Source: Schmidtea polychroa (Eukaryota). From it: a stretch of DNA of 64,000 bases. The DNA lies in assembly GCA_044892525.1 (NCBI GenBank), contig CM097885.1, forward strand, positions 65,348,001 through 65,412,000, in the 5' to 3' direction. Of this stretch, positions 2,529 to 24,100 are shown one piece after another (position 1 is the first letter of the stretch; each line of letters starts with the position of its first letter). Position numbers and translations under genes: made by a program. Under the pieces are notes generated by a model. The model did not search any database and had not been told where the DNA came from. It worked only from the letters and a program-made list of their open reading frames with translations.

Positions 2529-4740
2529 CCCTACACTGCATGACTTTTTATATTTGATAGGAAAAAATGTTTTTAAGGGGAAATTACCGTCTGAGTTCAG
2601 GAAAAATACACAAAAAAATTAAAAATCACTAATTTAGTAGATATTATGCAATTTCAATATGTATCACCAGTGATACATTATGCAGTAATACAAATGGTGT
2701 AATACGGAAATACATAATATAATAATAAAATGCATATATCTTCAATATAACACAACTTGTTTGGCAGTTTATTATAATTCAAAATAACAATTCATTATAA
2801 GTTCAAATAAAAAATATATAATTAAAAAAATAACTAAAAAATATAAAAAAATATAAATTAATTCATAATAATTTGATATAATATGACTATAGGAATGATT
2901 TATTTGTTCAAATGGAAATTGGTAAAACAATTTCTATTTTTTAGAAGGCACAAATTCGATTTACATTTTTCACATGACAGAAGATAAAAAGTTGCATTTT
3001 GGATTTTTACATCGTTGCCTCTCATCAGTCCATATTGGCCAATGTGCAAATTTGTCCAATCGAACGTCTGCTGGTGGATAATGAGTTGCTGACGTTTTCT
3101 GTCTTTTCGCTTCAATTGCAGTTTTTATTTTTGTGCTAGATGGTCTACCTTTTCGAGTTGTAGACGTGCAAGTTTTACATAAACTCTCAGCTACTTCAAG
3201 TCGAAAATCCAATAATGACATAGTGTCCTTGTATCTCTCGTCGAAAGCGCGTTTATATAATAACCATGAATTTACCAATGATACATCTATCAAGTGGTAA
3301 AAAATTCTTATGTACCATTTTTTGGATCTTATTTTAATTTTATATCTACCAATAAGACTATCAGTTTTATCAACTCCACCCATAAACATATTATATTCTT
3401 TGATTATATTTGGGCATTCTAAAGTAATCATTTCCTTTCGATTTTTGTCAAAACGTTCAGCTGTTTGTATTGGCTCCTTTCCTGTGAACGTCGAAATCAA
3501 ATTTACAAGCTTGTTATCTTTCCAAACTACAGTTGCAATTTCAATTTCATCAATGCATCCAACATATTCTACAATAGTGCCACGTTTTTCCTTTTTTCAT
3601 TCTATTTCTGTAGGTAGCTTGCAATTTGGGATGCGATTTCTGCGAACTGTTCCAACGGTATATATTTGGTTTTTTGCTAATTCTACAACTAATGGCAACG
3701 TGGTATAATAATTATCGAAATATATACGATAATTTTCATATTTTGGAACACTGCGTAATAATCTGATAACAATGTTAGCTGAACAGCCCAGATCTGGTTC
3801 ATTGGATAGCCGTTTTGTAGGATAATTTTCCTGCCCGGTATAAATTTCAAAATTGTACGTAAATCCGGAAATTCCGCTTAGTACAAAAAGTTTGTAACCC
3901 CATTTGTGAGGTTTGTCTGGCAAATATTGTTTCAGATAACTCCTAGCTTTGGTCGAACATAACTGTTCGTCAAGTGACAAACACGGTTCATATGGCACGC
4001 TTTGAAATTTATTTAGAAGAGATGTTATAAGAGGTCGAATTTTAAATAATCGATCGTGTTCTGCATGACCCCTAGCAAGCATTTTAGTGTTGTCATTGAA
4101 ATGAATAAATTTTCTAATTTTTTCGAATTGATTTACAGCCATTGTCTCTTGAATTAATTTATTACCTATGACTGGTGACCAATACTTTCTTGTATTAGAG
4201 ATATGAACAACAGAAGTCAATACACAAATTCCAATATACTGACTGATTTCCGTTTTATTTATTTTGAATGGATGTGCAGGATAATAAAAACATGCGACAG
4301 ATTATAATAGTACTGTATATTTTTGTTATAATATTTATTTACTACAATGCATGATGTATCAACAGTGATACATGAAGTTAATATTGATATATAAAGGAAA
4401 TAACAATAAGTTATATAATAAAATGTTGTTTTAATAAATAATATAGTATATTATTAAACAAATTTAACTCAACTTACACTTTTTATATAAAAAATTCAAA
4501 ACGTATAACTGATTGTTGTCTAAGTACTTTGTACACTTTCACTTAAACTGTAAGACGTTTTAAAAATTGATTTGGTAATACAAAACTATTGAGAATTACA
4601 TTACGGTTTTTTTGTATTATATTGCAAATATAGCCAATACAATGTAATATGAGAGAACATTTACCGAGAACAAGAGCGAGACAGTTTTTATTCTAATAAG
4701 ATAATTGTGTATCACCAGTGATACAATATGCAGCGTAGGG
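2529..4740 (-). mobile_element. piggyBac element with both ends, defective transposase
   Basis: TTAA at 2525-2528 and 4741-4744; 13-bp TIRs CCCTAC(A/G)CTGCAT. Confidence 0.92.
2900..4271 (-). pseudogene. piggyBac (PGBD3-like) transposase, N-terminally deleted
   Basis: Motifs SLDEQL, KPHKWGYKLF, YFDNYY, MGGVDK and a C-terminal Cys-rich domain (CKNPKC..CEKC..LC..C..H). One in-frame TGA at 3597-3599 joins the two track ORFs; a frameshift lies near 2975. Confidence 0.9.
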
Positions 4741-6116: not shown

Positions 6117-6224
6117 CTATGAATTGCATAATGCTAATTTTTGTTTTAATTCTCTGATTTTTGTCGTTGGATGTACTTCTACTTCTTCGCATGTTTTATC
6201 GGGATATTTGATTCGAATTCGGTA
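6117..6224 (-). pseudogene. Ubiquitin-like module, N-terminal half
   Basis: YRIRIKYPDKTCEEVEVHPTTKIRELKQKLA has the beta1-beta2-alpha1 pattern of ubiquitin ([31 protein letters not shown]). Confidence 0.5.
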
Positions 6225-6600
6225 CCTTTCTTGGGTATCTGTAGCCCATTCTTGATTTCTCCATTTTCTAATAATCTGATCTAATTGTTCTGGATACCAT
6301 TCATTGTATTGTCGGTATTCCTCTGTCTCCTTTACTATATCTCTAAAATAATGGATATTTTCTGCTGCCTTTAAGATGAAGTTAGCTAGTGCTATTACTT
6401 GTCGTTTCTGGTTTTTTGCTCATGTAGCCAAGATCTTGCTCAGTTGTTTATGTTTTTCTTTCTCTTTTCGATCTCTTACTTCCTTTGTTTCCTCACTGTC
6501 CATATCGGCATATTCACGTTCCTTCTTTCTCATTGCATGTATGTCTTATTTCGGTCTCGCTTTCTGACGTGACATCCGTTTCACTTTCGTTGCCTAGTAT

Positions 6601-7170
6601 CTATTCCATTTCTTCTTCGTACTCTGGCAGTTCATCTTCCTCTTCTTCCGATTCGGTTTCCGTTTCTTCGATTTCTGTTTCTGCAATAATTCCTTTCTTG
6701 ATTTCCCATTCTTTTCTTTCTGTATTCCAGACTCTTTCCCACGGTGTCCGTCTGCAATTTCTGGTGTTCAACTTCTTTAATTCTCCGTGTAAATCTGTTT
6801 CCTTTAACCATTGCTGATAAATTCTAATTATTTCTATTGATTTGCGATATAGCGTTTTCATCATATCTCTTATTTCTCTCTGGTAGGTAATGTCTCTTGT
6901 CTGGAACTCATCCATTGGGAGTATTCTGATGATTTGATGGTTATCCCACATACCGATTTCGCCTAGCGAGATGTCGTCATCTGCTCGTAATATCATTTTG
7001 TCATACATTTTCACCACGTCGTCTATCATATCATCCTCGCTATACTTCCGTACTTTTTCCATTATTGTTTCATTTATCTTTTCCACCAGTTCACCGACTG
7101 TATTTTGATTACACATTTCCATTTGTTGTTTCTCTTCATTTGGCAACCATATCGTTATTTTCAATTTCAT
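6601..7170 (-). CDS. 189-aa element ORF with N-terminal ubiquitin-like domain and acidic tail
   Basis: MKLKITIWLPNEEKQQMEMCNQNTVGELVEKINE...KMYDKMILRADDDISLGEIGMWDNHQIIRIL resembles a beta-grasp UBL (TVGELxEKI helix; L-x-D-x-SLGE-x-G motif). Confidence 0.55.
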   Translation of the reverse strand: MKLKITIWLPNEEKQQMEMCNQNTVGELVEKINETIMEKVRKYSEDDMIDDVVKMYDKMILRADDDISLGEIGMWDNHQIIRILPMDEFQTRDITYQREIRDMMKTLYRKSIEIIRIYQQWLKETDLHGELKKLNTRNCRRTPWERVWNTERKEWEIKKGIIAETEIEETETESEEEEDELPEYEEEME

Positions 7171-7603
7171 TGGTTGTGTATCTTTTAGTCTTCCATATTT
7201 TAAGGATTAGGATAGTAGTTCTCCAACTACTCATTCTGAATAGTTCCGTATCCCGTAAGTTGCTCATGAGTTCGTACATGGCTGATGATTGCTTTTTCAG
7301 TAGTAAGTCCCAATTGTCTTTTACTTGCTCTTGGATTTGTTTGATCAATTTCTCTAAATTTCGTTTCAAGATGTATTGTTTGGTTTGTTCTAATTTCAGT
7401 TTAATGTTGAATTCGTATTCGGCTTTTGCGTCCTTAGCCCGTTCATAAATTTTAACTAGTTGTTTTTCTTTATACATTTTTAGTATTTGTGTTTCCCCTG
7501 GCCAGATCAGTGCATCTATTAAGTGCATATCAGGTTTGATCAGTTCGCCTTGATATCGATATAGGTGTTCCTTCTTCCTTGAGCCACCTAAATGCTCTTG
7601 TTA

Positions 7604-7838
7604 TGTTGAGAATTACACTTAGTTTGTGTATAATTTGTATAAGAAATCTGAAGGACCCGATAGAGTCACCGTTAAAAATATGGCGGGACAATCGGGGTGC
7701 GTGTTGTGTATGTTTACAAGTTAATAAAAAATAAAAATAGAAATAATAATAAACAATAATAACTCTTTTATTAAAATCTAAATAAAAATCCTTAGTATTC
7801 TTCTTTAAAACAATTTAATCCAACTTTTCGATTTAACA
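7604..7838. mobile_element. Short solo-LTR-like insertion inside element 1
   Basis: Starts TGTTG and ends TAACA; flanks GTTA/GTTC (3 of 4 match); the reading frame IEMNEQEHLG rejoins across it. Confidence 0.5.
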
Positions 7839-7944
7839 GTTCATTCATCTCGATTCTAGTTCTTCTTGTTCATATAGTCTTGATTCGTAATGTTAATTTT
7901 GTTATTTTAAAAATTTTCAATGTTTTATTGATTTTTTTTCTTTC

Positions 7945-7980
7945 TATAGCGATAGTTTACTATAGTAAACTATCGCTATA
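7945..7980. repeat. Perfect 36-bp palindrome
   Basis: TATAGCGATAGTTTACTA|TAGTAAACTATCGCTATA is its own reverse complement. Confidence 0.95.
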
Positions 7981-9277
7981 TAGTTTTTTTAATACTTTTT
8001 ATTTCCGCCAATTAAAAAATGTAAAATGCTACTACAGCTCTCGTATCCAATCGAACAGTTCGTCGGTGACCGTATTTTTTATCCATATTTTCTCAAGACC
8101 TTTACTTGTCCCGATTTTTATTACATAGTGCATTGTATCAACTTGTTTCATGTTTTCCATATATTTTTTTATTAGTAATTTTCCCTCATTCGGTATTACA
8201 TCCTTCTCGTTCCGTTCCAATCCCATTATTTTTTGGATAAAACGTCTGAATGGTATTAAGACAATAAACTCCTGGTTTCTACCACAGGGATTATTTCCGT
8301 TATCCGTTTTATCGCTTCTCCCTTCTCTTTTCTTGTCTTCATTTCGATATTTTCGTCTTCACTTTCACTCGTTACGTCGCTTTCGTCTTCGCTTTCATTT
8401 CTTCCGATTTTTTCTTTCAGCTGTCCGATTACTTCGTTCAGTTGCAGTTCTTCTCCACCTAAACTGCTCTCATAATCCTCGTTATCTGTTGTCGTTCTCA
8501 TCATATTAATTTGTAAATTTCTCATTTTTGCTACTTTCTTTAGTTTTTTATTTTTGAATATTGTTTCTTCGTCTGATTCCAATTCTTGTATCAGTTTATG
8601 GTTTAGGTGGCTGATTTGCTCCTCGTTTTTGTTACTTTTATTTTCCGTTTCTGTTTTGGTTTTATCATATTCCTTTTCAATTCTATCTTTTATCTTTTTC
8701 CAGAATATTTTCTGAATTCTCTGATTTCCTTTTAGTATTGGTTGAGGATTTCCGTTTTTGTCCTCTGTTTTTACTACTTTTACTGTCTCTGGTTCGGTCA
8801 TGAGTACTACACGAGGTTTTTCCCATAGTTATAACAATACTGGTTCTTCATGTCTTTTACCATTCTCATCATATTTATTCGTAGTGGTTGACTTTGTCGT
8901 TGCTGATTACGTTCTTGTTTTATTCTTTCTTCCTCCGCTTGTAGTCTTTACCATTCTTGTATATGTTGTTGTATCTCGTAATTGTTGATATTCTCTGTAC
9001 TTCTCATCATACATATATTCTGTGTTTGTTGTGGTGCTTGGTTCTGACTTGCTCGTATTAATTGTTGCATCATCGGCTTCATCTGTGAAATTTCCTGCAT
9101 GACGTTCATTTGCTTCCCCTCGCTTGGATTGTTTTGTCGCTGCGGGTTTGGTACGTAGTTATTGGTTCGTTATTTATTATTCGTGTTATTCCCATTATTC
9201 GTGTTATTACGATCATTATTGTTTCCACTTGGTTGTCCTTGCGGTTGTTTGAAAATTTGATGTGCTCCTGGTATAAA

Positions 9278-9829
9278 TTAATTCGTTTTTGGTTCTTGAT
9301 TATTGTTATATCCGTTTTCCGTTTTTGCTATTGCTGCTGTAATTCTCCCGTCTTCCTGCATGACATTCATTTGTGCCGGGAGGTGACTTTCACATCTCGT
9401 AGCCCAATCTACGGCTTCTTCCAGTGACTTGCACATTTGACATCCTACCGATGTTCTCACTTCTTCTCGGCGTAACCCTTCTATGAAATAGCCGATCAAA
9501 TTTTCTTCCCGTAATTTTCCATCCATGTCCTTCGTTGCCAATCGCCGTAATTCACTTGCGTACAACGTTATTGACTCGTTCGCCCTTTGTTTCCTACTTG
9601 CCAGTTCACCTAATGCTTGGTTGATTGGTTTGCTGGTTCCGAAGGTTTTCTTCAAAAATGTTTTTATGTTGTCCCAATTGTCTAATTTAGTATCTAGCGG
9701 CATTCTTTTGCTGATTGCTTCCGGTGTCCAACCACACACCGTTATATAAACCTCAAAATTCGTTATAAATGTTGCCAAGTTATTCGCATTCCCATTGAAT
9801 TTTTCTAAATTTTTCTTTATATTCTTCAT
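9278..9829 (-). pseudogene. Ty3/gypsy-type Gag (capsid-like) of element 1
   Basis: EKFNGNANNLATFITNFEVY..CGW, LASRKQRANESITLYASELRRLA and YFIEGL..EVR are typical retrotransposon gag segments. The frame continues past TAA stops to a degenerate knuckle CYNYGK near 8830. Confidence 0.75.
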
Positions 9830-10941
9830 TTTTCGTGATTACTGGTATATCGCTCGTCATGATTGTTTTTTGTAGTTCTACAGTTTCACTTAAATTTTTC
9901 AGCGATGTTGTTGAACTACTGACTGATAGATCTTCTGTTGATGCTGTTAGACTGTTTGCTATATCTATTATATTATTCTTGCTTCTGGATCGATTTAGTA
10001 TCTTCTCTGGTATCGGGTTTTTTTTATCCTCTGTTTAATTTTTCATTGATTTCCTTGGTCATTGTGATGATCCTCTTCTAAAATGCGTTGATCGCGATCT
10101 TTTAAGCTTCTCAAGTTGGTCTAGATTATATAAATGTTCAAACTGATTACTTGAGGATCTAAGTGCTCTTTGATTATCCGTGATTTCCTCTTGTGTTTCT
10201 TTGTCTTCTCTTGGTTCTTTCTTACTTTGTGCGGGTTCTGAATTGGTTTGTCCTAATTTGCTGCAGTGTTTCTTCGAAGTCCTTCTATGTGGGTTCTGGA
10301 TTGGCTTGACTGGGTTGATATCTACAATGAAAAAATGATACCGTGTTGCATCCGCTTACACGAATCAATCGCTCTTCTTGCAACATCCAAGCACAAACAC
10401 CTTTATGGGTTTCTATTTATGCTCCGCTTACTTTTTACCTATATCATCCCGCGGGTTATAATTACACATCATCCCGTATTTTTCGTCGATTTTAAATTAT
10501 CAATATGGGGTAGTAACAATTATCTATATGGTCGTATCAATTATCTATAATTATCATTTATAATATCAATAGGTCGTTTTCTGTTGCTACTTATTACCTC
10601 CCTCATTTTCCTAATAAACTTTTGCTCAATTTTCGCCATTTTACTTATCTTTTTATATCTAGTTCACTTATTACTCTTTACTCGGTTCTACTCTGGAACC
10701 AAAAATCAATTTTTCCCCCTTTTTCGATTTTGAACCCAAAAAATTTTATTCCATTTTCGTTGAACTTTCTCTACTTATCTGGGTTCCTCTTTTATTTATT
10801 TATTTTCTTCCTTTCTGTTGTATATTTCCATTTATCCTTTATTTTCACTATCTCATTTAATTCATTTTATTTAATAAATCAAGAAAATGTTTTACATCGG
10901 CTATTCAACTAGAAGATCCTTCATTGAGTGGCAGTCATATC

Positions 10942-11430
10942 TTAGTTGTAATAAATGACGTGTTTTTCCTTTATTTCGTATGTGCACATTGAACAATGTG
11001 TTAAGATGGTGATACATTCCTCACAACGGCTGAGGTGTCCGCGTGGTAGTATACAGAATTCTGCCAGGTCGCGTTTTACAGATGTTACATGCTCTCAATG
11101 CCGTCGTTTTCTCCTCAATTCTGGTTCGTATTTTCCCAGGCATAGTTGTAAGTTGGTCGCGTATTTTTATATATTCGGTATTTAAATCTGGGTCTTCTAG
11201 GCGTTGTTGGTACCTTTGGTAATGAGTCGGCATATCTGTGATGTTGCTGGTTTGTCCTAGTTTATCGGTTATGTAATTTTGTTTTGACACAAGCGGTGCA
11301 TCGTTGCGTTGCTGTTCTATAAGTTCTATTTGCGTAAGTTTTTCTGTTAAAGTTGCTATTGAATCTTTCTCTATGTCGATGAATTTGATCAGTTGTTGTA
11401 GATGTTGGTGTGCTTCTTACATATCTGAAT
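10942..11430 (-). pseudogene. Coiled-coil plus IAP/XIAP-type C3HC4 RING ORF
   Basis: Removing one inserted A near 11050 gives CNICKTRPGRILYLPRGHLSRCEECITILTHCSMCTYEIKEKHVIYYN*, with spacing C-x2-C-x11-(C>R)-x-H-x3-C-x2-C-x6-C-x2-C. Confidence 0.7.
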
Positions 11431-11959
11431 AAATTACATTTTTATTTATTGGTTCTCATTTTTATCAGAATTAATGTTACTGCGGTTTTAACTTTGTATT
11501 TGGTTGTCGTTTTGGTCAATTTTATTTTAACATTTATTGGTTTATTTAATTTAGTTTATCTTTTATTTTCGATCAAATCTCCCCCGTCGCACTCTCCTTT
11601 TCAAAACACTTTTAATTCCTTAATCGTTACTTTCTTTAGTCGACTCCCTTTCAACTTCGTCTTTATTTTATTTGACGAATTTAAAACAGTTAATTCTCGC
11701 TTCCCATTTTAACGTGCTCAATATTTTCAACGCATACCCATATCTCAGTTTTTTGTTTTTAATTTAGTCCCCATAATCAGATTCATTCGAATTTCTCACC
11801 ATGGTTTTATTTCATACTTTTAGCACAATTAGATCAACGCACTTCAACTCAATCCTTGGTTTCGTTTCAATTTATACCACATTATCATAGTAATTCAGTT
11901 CAATCCCCACTACATTCTAATATAATCAATTGAATTGAGTAAAATCAACTCATCCCGGC

Positions 11960-13230
11960 TGAGCCCCCAAAAATCATGTTGGAATACTTGGGGGGAAAGA
12001 AAATTTAAACGTTCTCCTAAGCTCAGAATTCGACTTCCCAAGCATCCAATATGACTTACAGATCATCTCCCTTATGTGTGCCCGTGGTGGCGAAACACGT
12101 TGGTACTGCGCACATAGGTCGGAATTTACCGGCAGGTGAGCTCCTATGTTAGAACTACTCCCGGCAAAATCTCGGTACGGGTTTGATGGTGCCATAGAAG
12201 GACTTACCCCGTTTTAGTCATTCAATCAGTGCGACCCTGGTTCAACGGGACGACTTTATCAACGAAAAACCCTCTTCAAGCAATTACCTTTAACTTGATA
12301 TTCTACAGACAAACAAAACTGGTAGTAACGATTACTATGATTTATTATTAACCACACACAAACAATGATTACATACAGATAGATTTCGCAGAATACAGTG
12401 AACACAGGACATACATTCAGAGTCTGGGAAAATGTTCGAGTGGACGGCCGACGATCACTTTGCCGCATCATGAATCAGTATTCAGAAAAACACTTCGCCT
12501 TCGGCTATGAAGGCGTCGATGTCCACCTGAAGCCGAGGGTCCTCCAGCGCTTTGCTTTCCCCAGCAGGGACGTGGCGATAACACTCGGTTGAGACTGACA
12601 CCATTGTTTGCGAAATTGCCTTATTAGTGGTCTGAGTGGCGAATAAAGAAGCTTCTAGGGCCGTGATGGTGTCTCGTCGCTTCTGGTTTTTCTCTGCTCG
12701 TTTCTTTGGGGCAGAAAAGTAGCTGCGACGGGTTGATTATTCGATGACTTAGAAGCGACGCCCTGTCCGGTAGTTGCCTGGAAATTCACTTCGCGTGAGG
12801 ATCTTGACAACATGGGTTCGATTAGTGGCGAGAGTTGGAATCCATGCCCCGAGCAACTAGTTGAAGGTTGCTGTGTTTCGTCATTTCGATGGTGGATGGA
12901 GAATATGTTGGTTCCCTCCTGGATGGGATACTCTCGTACCCGTTTGAGAATTTCCTATTCGGAGTACACTTTATGGAGCGCCTCGGATTGGGCTTTAATA
13001 TGGTCAGCCGTTGACATCGGCTTTTCTCCAGGAGGCTATCCCTGCAATGCTCTAGTCTGAGTATTTTTGTTTTCTCTGCCTTCATCTGTGGTGGAGAGAA
13101 CCACGTGCATTCTTATGTGTCTTTACGTTTTTTGAGAGCCCCAATGTACGCATGAAGTTTCCGGATGTCTTCATTCTTATCCGCGCATGAGAAGCACGGG
13201 CGGAGTTCTTTAGCTGGCAAATTTTACTCG
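11960..13230 (-). mobile_element. GC-richer, internally deleted relic of a probable RLE-type (R2/NeSL/R4-like) non-LTR retrotransposon
   Basis: Clear GC island. With frameshifts the 3' part reads FVDKVVPLNQG...EILPGVV-SNIGAHLPVNSDLC...GKSNSELRRTF, resembling a restriction-like endonuclease C-terminus. No RT motifs seen. Confidence 0.4.
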
Positions 13231-20206: not shown

Positions 20207-22561
20207 CAGGGGTCTCAAACACGCGGCCCGCAACGAAAAAACAGATTTGTAATTTAACCAAACTTATTTAACAATTAAAATCATAATTGACTGTATAAAT
20301 TAAAACTAATCTTTTTAATTATTTTTATTTATACATATGACGTCTAGTACAATTTAATAATGGCTTTATTACGTCTTTCTTATGAATCTTATCGAAAACA
20401 GTTTATTTATTTTAAAAATTATTGATTTTATTATTTAAATTAAAAAATATAAGTTATATTAAAAATACATATATTTTACATAATTTAAATTTTTGTTTAT
20501 TTTAATTTAATGTTATTTCAATCAACAAATAATAATTGGCATATTTAAAATTTTTTATACCCATCACAAAATGACTTTGTTATCTAGAAAAAGAAAACTC
20601 GTTGATGAAAGAAGGGTTTTCCAAGAGAAGTGGGAGAATTTATATTTTTTCACAGAGGCGAGAGATAAAATTCAGTGCCTTATATGCCAGCAGACTATTG
20701 CAGTACCAAAGGAGTTCAACCTTCGCCGGCACTACGACACTATGCATCGTGAAAAATATGATAAATATACTGGAAAAATTCGAGATGAAAAAGTTAACAA
20801 GCTTAAAATAGAATTTGATAAGCAACGAAACTTTTCGAATTTAAGCCAATTTGCAGAAAATTCAGTAAAAACAAGTTTTGAGCTAAGCCTGATGATAGCT
20901 GAATCATCGCGACCTTTCACAGAAGGTCCATTCATAAAAGAATGTTTTTTGAAGGCCAGCGAAATTTTAATTCCTGATAAAAAGAAACTATTCGAAAGCA
21001 TAAGTCTGTCTGCTAATACAGTTGCAAGCAGAATAACCGATTTAGCAGATAATGTGAAAAAACAATTTATTGAAAAGGCTGGAGATTTTGAAGCATTTTC
21101 GATCGCTCTTGATGAGAGTACTGATTTGGTAGATACTTCACAGTGCGCAATTTTTATAAGAGGAGTGGACAGTAAATTTAATGTAACGGAAGAATTTCTA
21201 GACTTGGTACCATTGAAGAATACCACAACGGGACGTGATTTATTTAAAGGATTGGAAGATTGTCTTGAAAAAGCTGGATTACCATGGAACAAACTTGTAT
21301 CAATGGTCACGGATGGAGCGCCAGCTATGTGTTCACAAACAATCGGTGTTGTTGGATTGGTGAAGACCAAACTACAAAGCCTCAATATACCAAATAATAA
21401 TTTCACTAGCTTACATTGCGTTGTGCACCAAGAAGCTCTGTGTAGCAAAAGTATTAAAATGATGGGTGTCATGGATGTGGTTGTGAAAACGGTCAATTTT
21501 ATACGTTCACGAGGCTTAAATCACCGACAGTTCACTTCTTTCCTAGCAAGTATAGAAAGCGAATATCGGGAAATTCTTTATTACACCGAAGTTAGATGGC
21601 TGAGTCGAGGAAATGTGCTGAATCGTTTTTTTGCACTTAGAGAAGAGATTTATTCTTTCATGAAACTCAAAAAGAATGAGGTTCCACAGCTTACTGATGC
21701 CAAGTTTATTTGCGACCTTGCCTTTCTGACAGATTTAACTGGTCATTTGAATGCATTAAATTTAAAACTTCAGGGCAAAAGACAAGTCATTACACAGATG
21801 TATGACAGTGTTAAATCATTCAAAGTCAAATTGTCTTTATTTCAAAGACAGCTTATTGTAGGCAACTTAGCCCATTTCTCAACTTTGAATTCCTTAGGAA
21901 AAGTCGAAAACCAATCCCTGAAAGAATATGCAGATATAATTTCAGATTTGCATCAACAATTTGTTTTATGTTTTAACGATTTTAAGGCACTTGAACCACA
22001 TTTTCAGCTTTTTGCAACACCATTCGCCGTTGAGATTGAAAATATAGCAGAGGAAATGCAGATGGAATTAGTAGATCTTCAGTGTGATTCCATATTGAAG
22101 CAAAAGTATTCAGATGTTGGAATTCTAGAATTTTATCAGTTTGTTTCAAAAGAAAGGTTTCCTATGTTACTTTCTGCTGCTGCAAGGATGATAGCAATGT
22201 TTGGAAGTACGTATGTTTGCGAACAATTTTTCTCTTCCATGAAAATTATCAAATCGCCATTAAGATCTAGGCTTACTGATGAACATCTGCAAGCATCTCT
22301 AAGACTGGTTTCATCACAGGACATTAAACCTAACATTGATGCCTTGGTTGATGCTAAACGATGCCAGGTAAGTGGGCAAAAGATGGATTGATTTCACAGT
22401 AACATTAATTTTAGTATTTTAATTTAAGAAAGCAGCATAATGAATGCTAAAATATTAAAATAAAATGTTTTTTAGTTTTGTTGAGTTTTTAATTAAATAA
22501 ATATTAACTTCGGTCTTTCAGACTCCACATGTTCTGGAAAACAATTATTTATGTTGCGGCC
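20207..22561 (+). mobile_element. Buster-type hAT element, left TIR present, right TIR missing
   Basis: CAGGGGTCTCAAAC-ACGCGGCCCG at 20207 after CACTAACC (TA at positions 4-5). Subterminal ATGTTGCGGCCC at about 22550 abuts the exonuclease-like fragment. Confidence 0.8.
20571..22391 (+). CDS. Intact hAT (Buster/SPIN/GTF2IRD2-like) transposase, 606 aa
   Basis: N-terminal CLIC..RRHY...H finger, ALDESTD, TDGA, HCVVHQEALC, EVRWLSRG and STYVCEQFFS; no stops or frameshifts. Confidence 0.95.
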   Translation: MTLLSRKRKLVDERRVFQEKWENLYFFTEARDKIQCLICQQTIAVPKEFNLRRHYDTMHREKYDKYTGKIRDEKVNKLKIEFDKQRNFSNLSQFAENSVKTSFELSLMIAESSRPFTEGPFIKECFLKASEILIPDKKKLFESISLSANTVASRITDLADNVKKQFIEKAGDFEAFSIALDESTDLVDTSQCAIFIRGVDSKFNVTEEFLDLVPLKNTTTGRDLFKGLEDCLEKAGLPWNKLVSMVTDGAPAMCSQTIGVVGLVKTKLQSLNIPNNNFTSLHCVVHQEALCSKSIKMMGVMDVVVKTVNFIRSRGLNHRQFTSFLASIESEYREILYYTEVRWLSRGNVLNRFFALREEIYSFMKLKKNEVPQLTDAKFICDLAFLTDLTGHLNALNLKLQGKRQVITQMYDSVKSFKVKLSLFQRQLIVGNLAHFSTLNSLGKVENQSLKEYADIISDLHQQFVLCFNDFKALEPHFQLFATPFAVEIENIAEEMQMELVDLQCDSILKQKYSDVGILEFYQFVSKERFPMLLSAAARMIAMFGSTYVCEQFFSSMKIIKSPLRSRLTDEHLQASLRLVSSQDIKPNIDALVDAKRCQVSGQKMD

Positions 22562-23821: not shown

Positions 23822-24100
23822 TTAGTTTTGCAATTTTTGGTAATTCTCTTTTGTTCCCACATATAGTCCCAACCAGGGTAGTTTTTTTTGCAAGTGAAGG
23901 ACTAGTAAAAAATTATCTGTGGTTATGTTTCTTCCATAACCTAAATATGGGTAAGTAAGTATGAGCACTACGCGTTCCACCAAATGCATGTTCGTTGTTC
24001 GCATTTCATCTTCACCCAAACATGGGAAACCATTTAATATATATTTACATTTCATGACCGATGCTAACCAGAATTTTATGCCGAATTACAATGATACCAC
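23822..24100 (-). mobile_element. piggyBac (PGBD4-like) catalytic-core fragment
   Basis: GIKFWLAS..KYILNGFP.LG..VVL.LTYPYLGYGRNITTDNF. Confidence 0.8.

What the first reader, a model, noticed from the sequence alone, without database searches (positions are those of the whole stretch)
10942..11430. IAP-type RING E3 ORF placed upstream of gag
Seen: one base removal yields Cys/His spacing identical to the XIAP/cIAP RING, with the third Cys read as Arg (CGC versus TGC). The RING is C-terminal, preceded by a helical region, and no BIR is visible. It lies between an LTR-element-type leader (11771) and gag. Known: IAP RINGs are captured by large invertebrate DNA viruses. Inference: this is E3 cargo in a retroelement.
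Basis: partly seen in the sequence, partly recalled or inferred. Interest (0 to 1): 0.7.

Follow-up and report, generated by a model that had tools for sequence, protein, structure and literature searches.

The report
Conserved RING gene in giant retrotransposons
This is a dead copy of a small, real gene that giant Burro-type jumping genes keep just ahead of their capsid gene; its protein ends in an IAP-type RING finger that has lost typical ubiquitin-ligase contact residues but kept the pairing tail, so it likely tunes another ligase rather than acting as one.

Summary
The RING is real and belongs to the retroelement. Window 10942-11422 (minus) is a thrice-broken copy of a 159-aa helical-plus-RING ORF. 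It lies between the tRNA-Pro primer site (11952-11969) and gag of a 30-kb, env-bearing Burro-type gypsy element. 100 of the top 102 gag hits carry the ORF upstream. The 10330-10910 stretch is internal leader, not LTR. Unbroken copies pass Pfam zf-C3HC4_3 and show dN/dS near 0.1. The BIR-RING (B-IAP)-bearing sister family has a 30%-identical ORF at the same place, so this is old Burro cargo, separate from B-IAP, which this family lacks. All eight zinc ligands and the tail Tyr matching cIAP1 Phe616 are kept. The loop-2 Pro and linchpin Arg are missing in 67 of 67 proteins. Best reading (0.45): a RING-dimer partner or pseudoligase, likely made from a spliced RNA. Close rival (0.35): an active atypical E3. 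Activity, partner and expression are untested. I could not read the primary Burro papers, which may already annotate this ORF.

The parts
11977..13214 (-). 3' part of the 5' LTR, decayed and cut at its 5' side; ends in CA
   Evidence: matches the 3' LTR of a full-length copy at 69-74%; end placed by motif search
12488..13214 (-). remnant of a 254-aa ORF that lies inside the LTR; no Pfam family
   Evidence: tblastn; Pfam blank
11952..11969 (-). primer binding site, 18 of 18 bases complementary to the 3' end of a host tRNA-Pro(TGG) plus CCA; 7 nt from the LTR end
11425..11438 (-). splice-acceptor-like T-rich tract plus AG, ending 2 nt before the start codon (splicing inferred)
   Evidence: sequence; an AG ends 0-2 nt before the ATG in 85 of 85 unbroken copies
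10942..11422 (-). leader ORF (159 aa in unbroken copies): helical N-terminal region plus C-terminal IAP-type C3HC4 RING; here a pseudogene with a stop at 11417-11419, a frameshift near 11053 and Arg at the third Cys position
10984..11089 (-). RING core, first to last Cys codon
   Evidence: codon positions from tblastn with an unbroken copy and the alignment
10330..10868 (-). internal leader between the RING ORF and gag, not an LTR; about 1.2 kb present in full-length copies (including a 116-bp tandem repeat) is missing here
10179..10181 (-). ACG codon at the start of the conserved gag frame; candidate non-AUG start (inferred)
   Evidence: 62 of 62 pattern-matched copies have ACG
6132..10163 (-). 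broken gag and following part of the Burro polyprotein (to about residue 1300 of 4,736); no env or pol part was found in the window
   Evidence: Retrotrans_gag E 4e-9; tblastn; ORF length

Best explanation
The window holds a dead copy of a conserved Burro accessory gene whose 159-aa product, likely made from a spliced RNA, is predicted to pair through its RING tail with another IAP-type RING and so likely tunes that ligase, with little ligase activity of its own. Shown: the gene, its place between primer site and gag, its conservation in two Burro families, purifying selection, and the residue pattern. Inferred: splicing, dimer formation, weak own activity, and the partner (a host IAP-like RING or, in trans, the sister family's B-IAP). 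The inferred purpose is to adjust cell-death or ubiquitin signalling in the cell where the element replicates; the helical N-terminal region would choose the partner or place.
For: Linkage: 54 of 60 and 100 of 102. dN/dS is 0.115 whole, 0.136 N-terminal and 0.081 RING among 9 main-lineage representatives (31, 32 and 27 of 36 pairs unsaturated), and 0.09 and 0.12 in the other two lineages (3 pairs and 1 pair). Eight zinc ligands and Tyr157 are invariant in the 16 aligned proteins. The tail after the last Cys is 13 residues in 57 and 14 in 10 of 67 proteins, which puts the Tyr at the place of cIAP1 Phe616; that residue works in trans on the partner's E2-ubiquitin (PMC6349121, passages). The loop-2 Pro is present in 0 of 67 leader RINGs against 25 of 26 other RINGs listed. 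The linchpin is Ala, Thr, Val, Ser, Lys or Asp. The cIAP1 Met575 position is Lys or Arg. RINGs diverged at the E2-ubiquitin face that pair with active ones are described (PMC11992055, passages). An AG lies 0-2 nt before the ATG in 85 of 85 copies; the background rate, on a stricter test that also asks for a pyrimidine-rich tract, is 89 of 1,860 other leader ATGs.
Against: XIAP has Tyr at the linchpin and is active, and its Glu variant is only marginally weaker (PMC12326332, section 13). 6 of 26 comparison RINGs also lack the Arg. One lineage has Lys there and one copy Arg. The Ile matching cIAP1 Val573 is kept in 56 of 67, and a host RING has Lys at the Met575 position. This family has no B-IAP, so a partner in cis is not evident. 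The 85 copies are three lineages, not 85 events, and 30 of 32 sister-family copies have only 6 of 12 pyrimidines before the AG. One copy with a 4,760-aa open polyprotein frame lacks the ORF.
Confidence: 0.45

Rival explanations
1. It is an active homodimeric E3 ligase with an unusual E2 face; the helical N-terminus recruits a host substrate (for example a silencing or cell-death factor) or Gag for ubiquitination.
For: Zinc ligands, tail aromatic and loop-1 Ile are kept. The RING is the most constrained part (dN/dS 0.08). XIAP works without a linchpin Arg. The N-terminal part changes far faster than gag (main versus diverged lineage pN 0.376 for the ORF, 0.033 for gag core), as a substrate-binding surface might.
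Against: Pro, linchpin and Met575 positions depart together in all three lineages, whereas B-IAP in the same element family keeps them. No substrate is known.
Confidence: 0.35
2. The ORF is the first coding exon of Gag, joined by splicing, so the RING travels in the particle as an N-terminal Gag domain.
For: Two database proteins, P0011 and P0012, join a homologous ORF to Gag in one chain. The gag frame is open for about 110 codons before its first Met.
Against: Both records look like gene models (P0011 has an internal duplication), and the join drops the conserved tail. No copy examined here has the frames fused in DNA. No shared donor is visible at the ORF end in 11 copies, and the start of the gag frame is purine-rich without an acceptor-like tract. 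A fixed ACG offers another start.
Confidence: 0.08
3. The protein has no role in ubiquitin transfer: it is a zinc-stabilised scaffold or a regulator of the element's own RNA or translation.
For: The E2 face is degenerate. The N-terminal 108 residues have no look-alike in the Atlas. The ORF sits in the leader ahead of a gag that seems to lack an early AUG.
Against: The tail length and aromatic residue that IAP-type dimers use for ubiquitin transfer are fixed across proteins only 26% identical. The element also carries a TRAF-like RING-MATH ORF.
Confidence: 0.1
4. It is a passive or chance passenger (a one-off insertion or neutral remnant).
For: The window copy itself is broken three times.
Against: Two capped searches each return 150 copies, mostly open (113 of the top 119; 139 of 150). 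The position is the same in two families, and dN/dS is near 0.1.
Confidence: 0.02

Closest known systems
Burro / GYPSM1 giant gypsy-like LTR retrotransposons of dugesiid planarians (review PMC6431247, section 7 read; its figure not seen)
   Same: About 30 kb; one 4,736-aa polyprotein with Gag, CCHC knuckles, in-frame fusion-glycoprotein Env, protease, RT, RNase H, integrase and ankyrin repeats; accessory ORFs tied to ubiquitin and cell death.
   Different: This family has no MATH domain inside the polyprotein and no BIR. The review's text names no separate RING ORF ahead of gag. Which numbered Burro family this is was not determined.
B-IAP of Burro1 (Lee et al. 2026, known to me only through passages of the citing paper PMC13465017)
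   Same: An IAP-type RING carried by a Burro element; a 392-aa BIR+RING ORF fitting that description is in the sister family here.
   Different: B-IAP lies 3' of pol, has a BIR and a canonical E2 face. The leader ORF lies 5' of gag, has no BIR, and is like B-IAP only over 44 RING residues (39%). The two coexist in the sister family.
cIAP1/cIAP2/XIAP/BIRC7 and IDOL RING domains
   Same: C3HC4 spacing, preceding helix, 13-residue tail with aromatic residue; best hits by sequence and top, non-significant rows by fold (E 0.01-0.03).
   Different: No BIR, UBA or CARD; loop-2 Pro, linchpin Arg and Met575 equivalents changed.
RING pseudoligases and heterodimer partners (TRIM6/22/51, BARD1: PMC11992055 passages; MDMX as a weakly active partner is recalled)
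   Same: A folded RING with a diverged E2-ubiquitin face, proposed to act by pairing with an active RING.
   Different: No sequence kinship shown; here it is encoded by a mobile element and inactivity is untested.

Membership tests
Burro giant gypsy elements | about 30 kb with long LTRs and target-site duplication | tested here: met
   full-length relatives of 30.5 kb with 4.2-kb LTRs 99.98% alike; 4-bp duplications at 4 of 4 elements read; the window copy is truncated
Burro giant gypsy elements | single giant polyprotein with Env in frame between Gag and protease | tested here: met
   Pfam order Gag, CCHC, Monjiviricetes_fusion, RVP, RT, RNase H, integrase, ankyrin; 4,736-aa frame
Burro1 proper | MATH domain in the polyprotein and a BIR-bearing ORF | tested here: not met
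   absent from this family; present in the sister family
Burro1 proper | sequence identity to the reference Burro families | not testable with these tools
   no reference library held; primary papers not held
IAP proteins | at least one BIR domain | tested here: not met
   none in the ORF; no BIR-spaced motif in 11 stretches of three full-length elements
IAP-type RING (zf-C3HC4_3) | Pfam score above the curated cut-off with C3HC4 ligands | tested here: met
   32-43 bits in 5 of 5 unbroken proteins scanned; the window copy itself is broken
IAP-type RING (zf-C3HC4_3) | C-terminal tail with aromatic residue at the cIAP1 Phe616 position | tested here: met
   Tyr157 invariant in 16 of 16 aligned; tail ends listed for 67 proteins
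active RING E3 ligases | canonical E2 and ubiquitin contacts (loop-1 hydrophobics, loop-2 Pro, cationic linchpin) | tested here: inconclusive
   Ile kept in 56 of 67, Pro in 0 of 67, Arg in 0 of 67, Lys in 10 of 67; XIAP shows the Arg is not required
active RING E3 ligases | ubiquitin transfer activity | not testable with these tools
   needs a biochemical assay

The most novel reading that the evidence does not exclude
Burro elements have carried, since before their families and host lineages split, a dedicated RING pseudoligase made from its own spliced RNA, which pairs with host IAP-type ligases (or with B-IAP in trans) to set the cell-death threshold. The B-IAP-less family would then steer apoptosis with this one small gene: a retroelement-encoded MDMX-like regulator.
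Probability: 0.25. Interest if true: 0.75.

Novelty: new variant of a known kind. Interest (0 to 1): 0.45.

Why it matters
Burro1 is reported to protect planarian stem cells through a captured BIR-RING protein (seen only via PMC13465017). A second, separate RING gene, fixed ahead of gag in both families examined and in a distant database lineage, is a missing variable in that story. Knock-downs of whole Burro RNAs would also hit it, and the family without B-IAP allows it to be tested alone. If it is a pseudoligase it would be a compact natural modulator of IAP-type dimers. If it is simply one more listed Burro ORF, the gain is annotation only.

Tried and rejected
Homodimer prediction: no answer, score 0.00, alignment not used; no evidence either way. 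Expression: no RNA holder listed; contigs laid on two copies show no joint or distinct loose end at the proposed acceptor, and contigs cannot show absence. Single-sequence protein search found no relative. The profile found two close copies of the sister-family ORF, P0011/P0012 and RING-only hits. Viral contigs: none. Metagenomes: 11 weak hits at 23-44% identity, most confined to the RING, not followed up. Atlas: N-terminal part no usable hit; whole protein only zf-C3HC4_3-bearing clusters. Foldseek: nothing at E<=0.001. The profile search of 1.84 billion representatives, the viral fold library and the wide structural search never ran, so distant relatives of the N-terminal region remain unsearched. 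RING tree on 59 columns: leader RINGs form one long-branch group (84/92, not firm), B-IAP groups with three host RING exons and one long-branch database row (100/98), and a common origin of leader RING and B-IAP is not rejected (p-AU 0.228); the donor is unresolved. L136 has a rearranged N-terminus: it is inside the counts and ratios and was left out. Rejected: 10330-10910 as an LTR; the ORF as a BIR-less piece of B-IAP at the same locus (different place, both present); a DNA-level RING-Gag fusion in this genome (best match to the P0011 N-terminus 35%). Literature: ten full-text searches listed no paper describing a separate RING ORF upstream of Burro gag. Grohme 2018, Jurka 2007 and Lee 2026, their figures and supplements, were not seen and may annotate it.

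Full report
Observation. On the minus strand, 11422-10942 encodes a helical region followed by a C3HC4 RING split over two frames. It has three breaks: a stop directly after the start codon, a frameshift near 11053, and Arg at the third Cys position. The window copy is 72-76% identical in DNA to the other 39 matches scored in the own genome, so it is an old, isolated relic. A protein search with a natural unbroken copy gave 150 capped matches; 113 of the top 119 have no stop inside. Unbroken copies pass Pfam zf-C3HC4_3, and their nearest solved sequences are cIAP1, XIAP and cIAP2 RINGs.

The element. Full-length relatives run 30.5 kb with 4.2-kb LTRs that are 99.98% alike, TG...CA ends and 4-bp target duplications in 4 of 4 elements read. 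The order is LTR (holding a 254-aa ORF), primer site, RING ORF, about 1.9 kb of leader, a 4,736-aa frame with Gag, CCHC knuckles, a fusion-glycoprotein Env, protease, RT, RNase H, integrase and ankyrin repeats, then a TRAF-like RING-MATH ORF, further unnamed ORFs and the LTR. This fits the Burro elements of planarians as described in PMC6431247 (section 7 read, figure not seen). The host is taken to be a planarian on that basis. The primer site matches a genomic tRNA-Pro(TGG) at 18 of 18 bases. The window keeps only part of the 5' LTR, the leader and the polyprotein to about residue 1300.

Linkage. I fetched 60 of the 150 RING loci: about every third of the top 119, one tandem-array copy and 20 lower-scoring ones. 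Gag lies downstream on the same strand in 54 of 60 (four of these hits are partial), the primer site upstream in 56 of 60, and the RING motif is whole in 51 of 60. Starting from gag, 98 of the top 102 hits have a listed RING hit 0.5-4.5 kb upstream. Of the four others, two carry a diverged variant, one has the ORF replaced by simple repeats and one has lost its 5' end. Of 16 further gag hits from the lower 48, 15 carry it. Window 10330-10910 matches internal leader at 74-75% and none of three 3' LTRs.

Relation to B-IAP. A BIR search gave 150 capped hits, mostly in a 392-aa BIR+RING ORF. It lies 3' of pol in a sister family that also has MATH inside its polyprotein. That fits what PMC13465017 (passages) and the review say of Burro1, but I could not compare with reference sequences. 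In 3 of 3 sister-family loci examined, a 160-aa ORF 30% identical to ours (E about 1e-14) sits between primer site and gag; 139 of 150 capped hits to it are open. Our family lacks B-IAP. Database proteins P0011 and P0012 hold a third version, at most 35% identical to anything scored in this genome. The leader RING is thus older than the family split and distinct from B-IAP. The RING tree does not settle its donor.

Selection. Among 9 main-lineage representatives dN/dS is 0.115 overall, 0.136 for the N-terminal part and 0.081 for the RING, from 31, 32 and 27 of 36 unsaturated pairs. In 37 copies with both ORF and gag core unbroken, synonymous distances are similar but the ORF changes more: pN 0.051 against 0.011 within the main lineage, and 0.376 against 0.033 between lineages.

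Protein anatomy. The predicted model (mean pLDDT 69, pTM 0.59, 16 sequences) has long helices over residues 3-109, a poorly defined 41-61, then the RING. Its top fold rows are IDOL, cIAP2 and XIAP RINGs, none at E<=0.001. In cIAP1, Val573 and Met575 contact E2, Arg606 is the linchpin, and Phe616 of the partner's tail holds ubiquitin in trans (PMC6349121, passages). Across 67 distinct leader proteins the Val573 place is Ile in 56, the loop-2 Pro is never present, the linchpin is never Arg (Lys in 10), and the tail is 13-14 residues. Tyr at the Phe616 place is invariant in the 16 aligned, and the Met575 place is Lys, Arg or Glu. The role of the loop-2 Pro in E2 binding is recalled; it is present in 25 of 26 comparison RINGs. 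Against over-reading: XIAP is active with Tyr at the linchpin (PMC12326332, sections 6 and 13 and passages), 6 of the 26 comparison RINGs lack the Arg, and one later copy has Arg.

Expression signals. An AG ends 0-2 nt before the ATG in 85 of 85 unbroken copies, after a T-rich tract in two lineages and a weaker one in the third. On a stricter test, 89 of 1,860 other leader ATGs show such a site. These are three lineages, not 85 events. It suggests a spliced or trans-spliced mRNA; this is inference.

Mechanism. Shown: a conserved, selected, separately framed accessory gene with an IAP-type RING. Inferred: it pairs through helix, RING and tail. Because its own E2 face is altered while the trans-acting aromatic is kept, it more likely modulates a partner RING than works alone, as proposed for pseudoligases (PMC11992055, passages). 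I put this at 0.45, an atypical active E3 at 0.35, a non-ubiquitin role at 0.10, a spliced Gag fusion at 0.08 and a neutral passenger at 0.02.

Novelty. The element kind and its taste for cell-death and ubiquitin cargo are known. A separate BIR-less RING ORF ahead of gag did not appear in the papers I could read or in ten searches. The three primary sources were not seen (two not held; the Repbase report was not requested), so it may already be drawn in their figures or supplements. PMC11410931 and PMC8532177 were seen as passages only and add nothing on this ORF. Verdict: real, a new variant of a known kind, interest 0.45.

Noticed in passing
window 10179-10181 (-); L026, L077-L136, L283-L302: The conserved gag frame begins about 110 codons before the first Met, at an ACG with a purine at -3 and G at +4 in 62 of 62 pattern-matched copies, while ACG is 66 of 436 Thr codons in the 110 codons ahead of the Gag core motif. 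Candidate non-AUG start for the giant polyprotein; not evident in the sister family.
   Followed up: partly
L025:8015-8779; window 12488-13214 (-): A 254-aa ORF inside both LTRs, conserved at 35-100% across subfamilies, no Pfam family.
   Followed up: no
L077-L115: Identities of LTR ORF, RING ORF and gag to one reference disagree between copies (L089: 97%, 82%, 99%), which suggests module exchange between subfamilies.
   Followed up: no
L007-L014, L016 (C1 152.9-153.5 Mb and 183.5 Mb): Nine near-identical copies share a deletion that cuts the RING in the middle and brings gag closer; probably a segmental or tandem amplification.
   Followed up: partly
L028:6991-9688: 3' accessory ORFs: a 479-aa TRAF-like RING-MATH protein and a 347-aa ORF related to the ORF that follows B-IAP in the sister family.
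   Followed up: partly
window 11970-11976 (-): The primer site is offset 7 nt from the LTR end here and in most copies, 9 nt in the sister family.
   Followed up: no
L277-L282 (C1 130.9 Mb): tRNA-Pro(TGG) genes in a long array at 475-bp spacing; 1,555 pattern matches genome-wide.
   Followed up: no
L286:2731-2961 (-): A broken RING-like stretch 30% identical to the sister-family leader ORF, in sequence that does not match the elements compared.
   Followed up: no
window 20511-22391 (+); 2970-4301 (-); 23822-24085 (-): A 626-aa open frame that looks like a hAT-type transposase and broken piggyBac-like pieces; names from recall, not tested.
   Followed up: no
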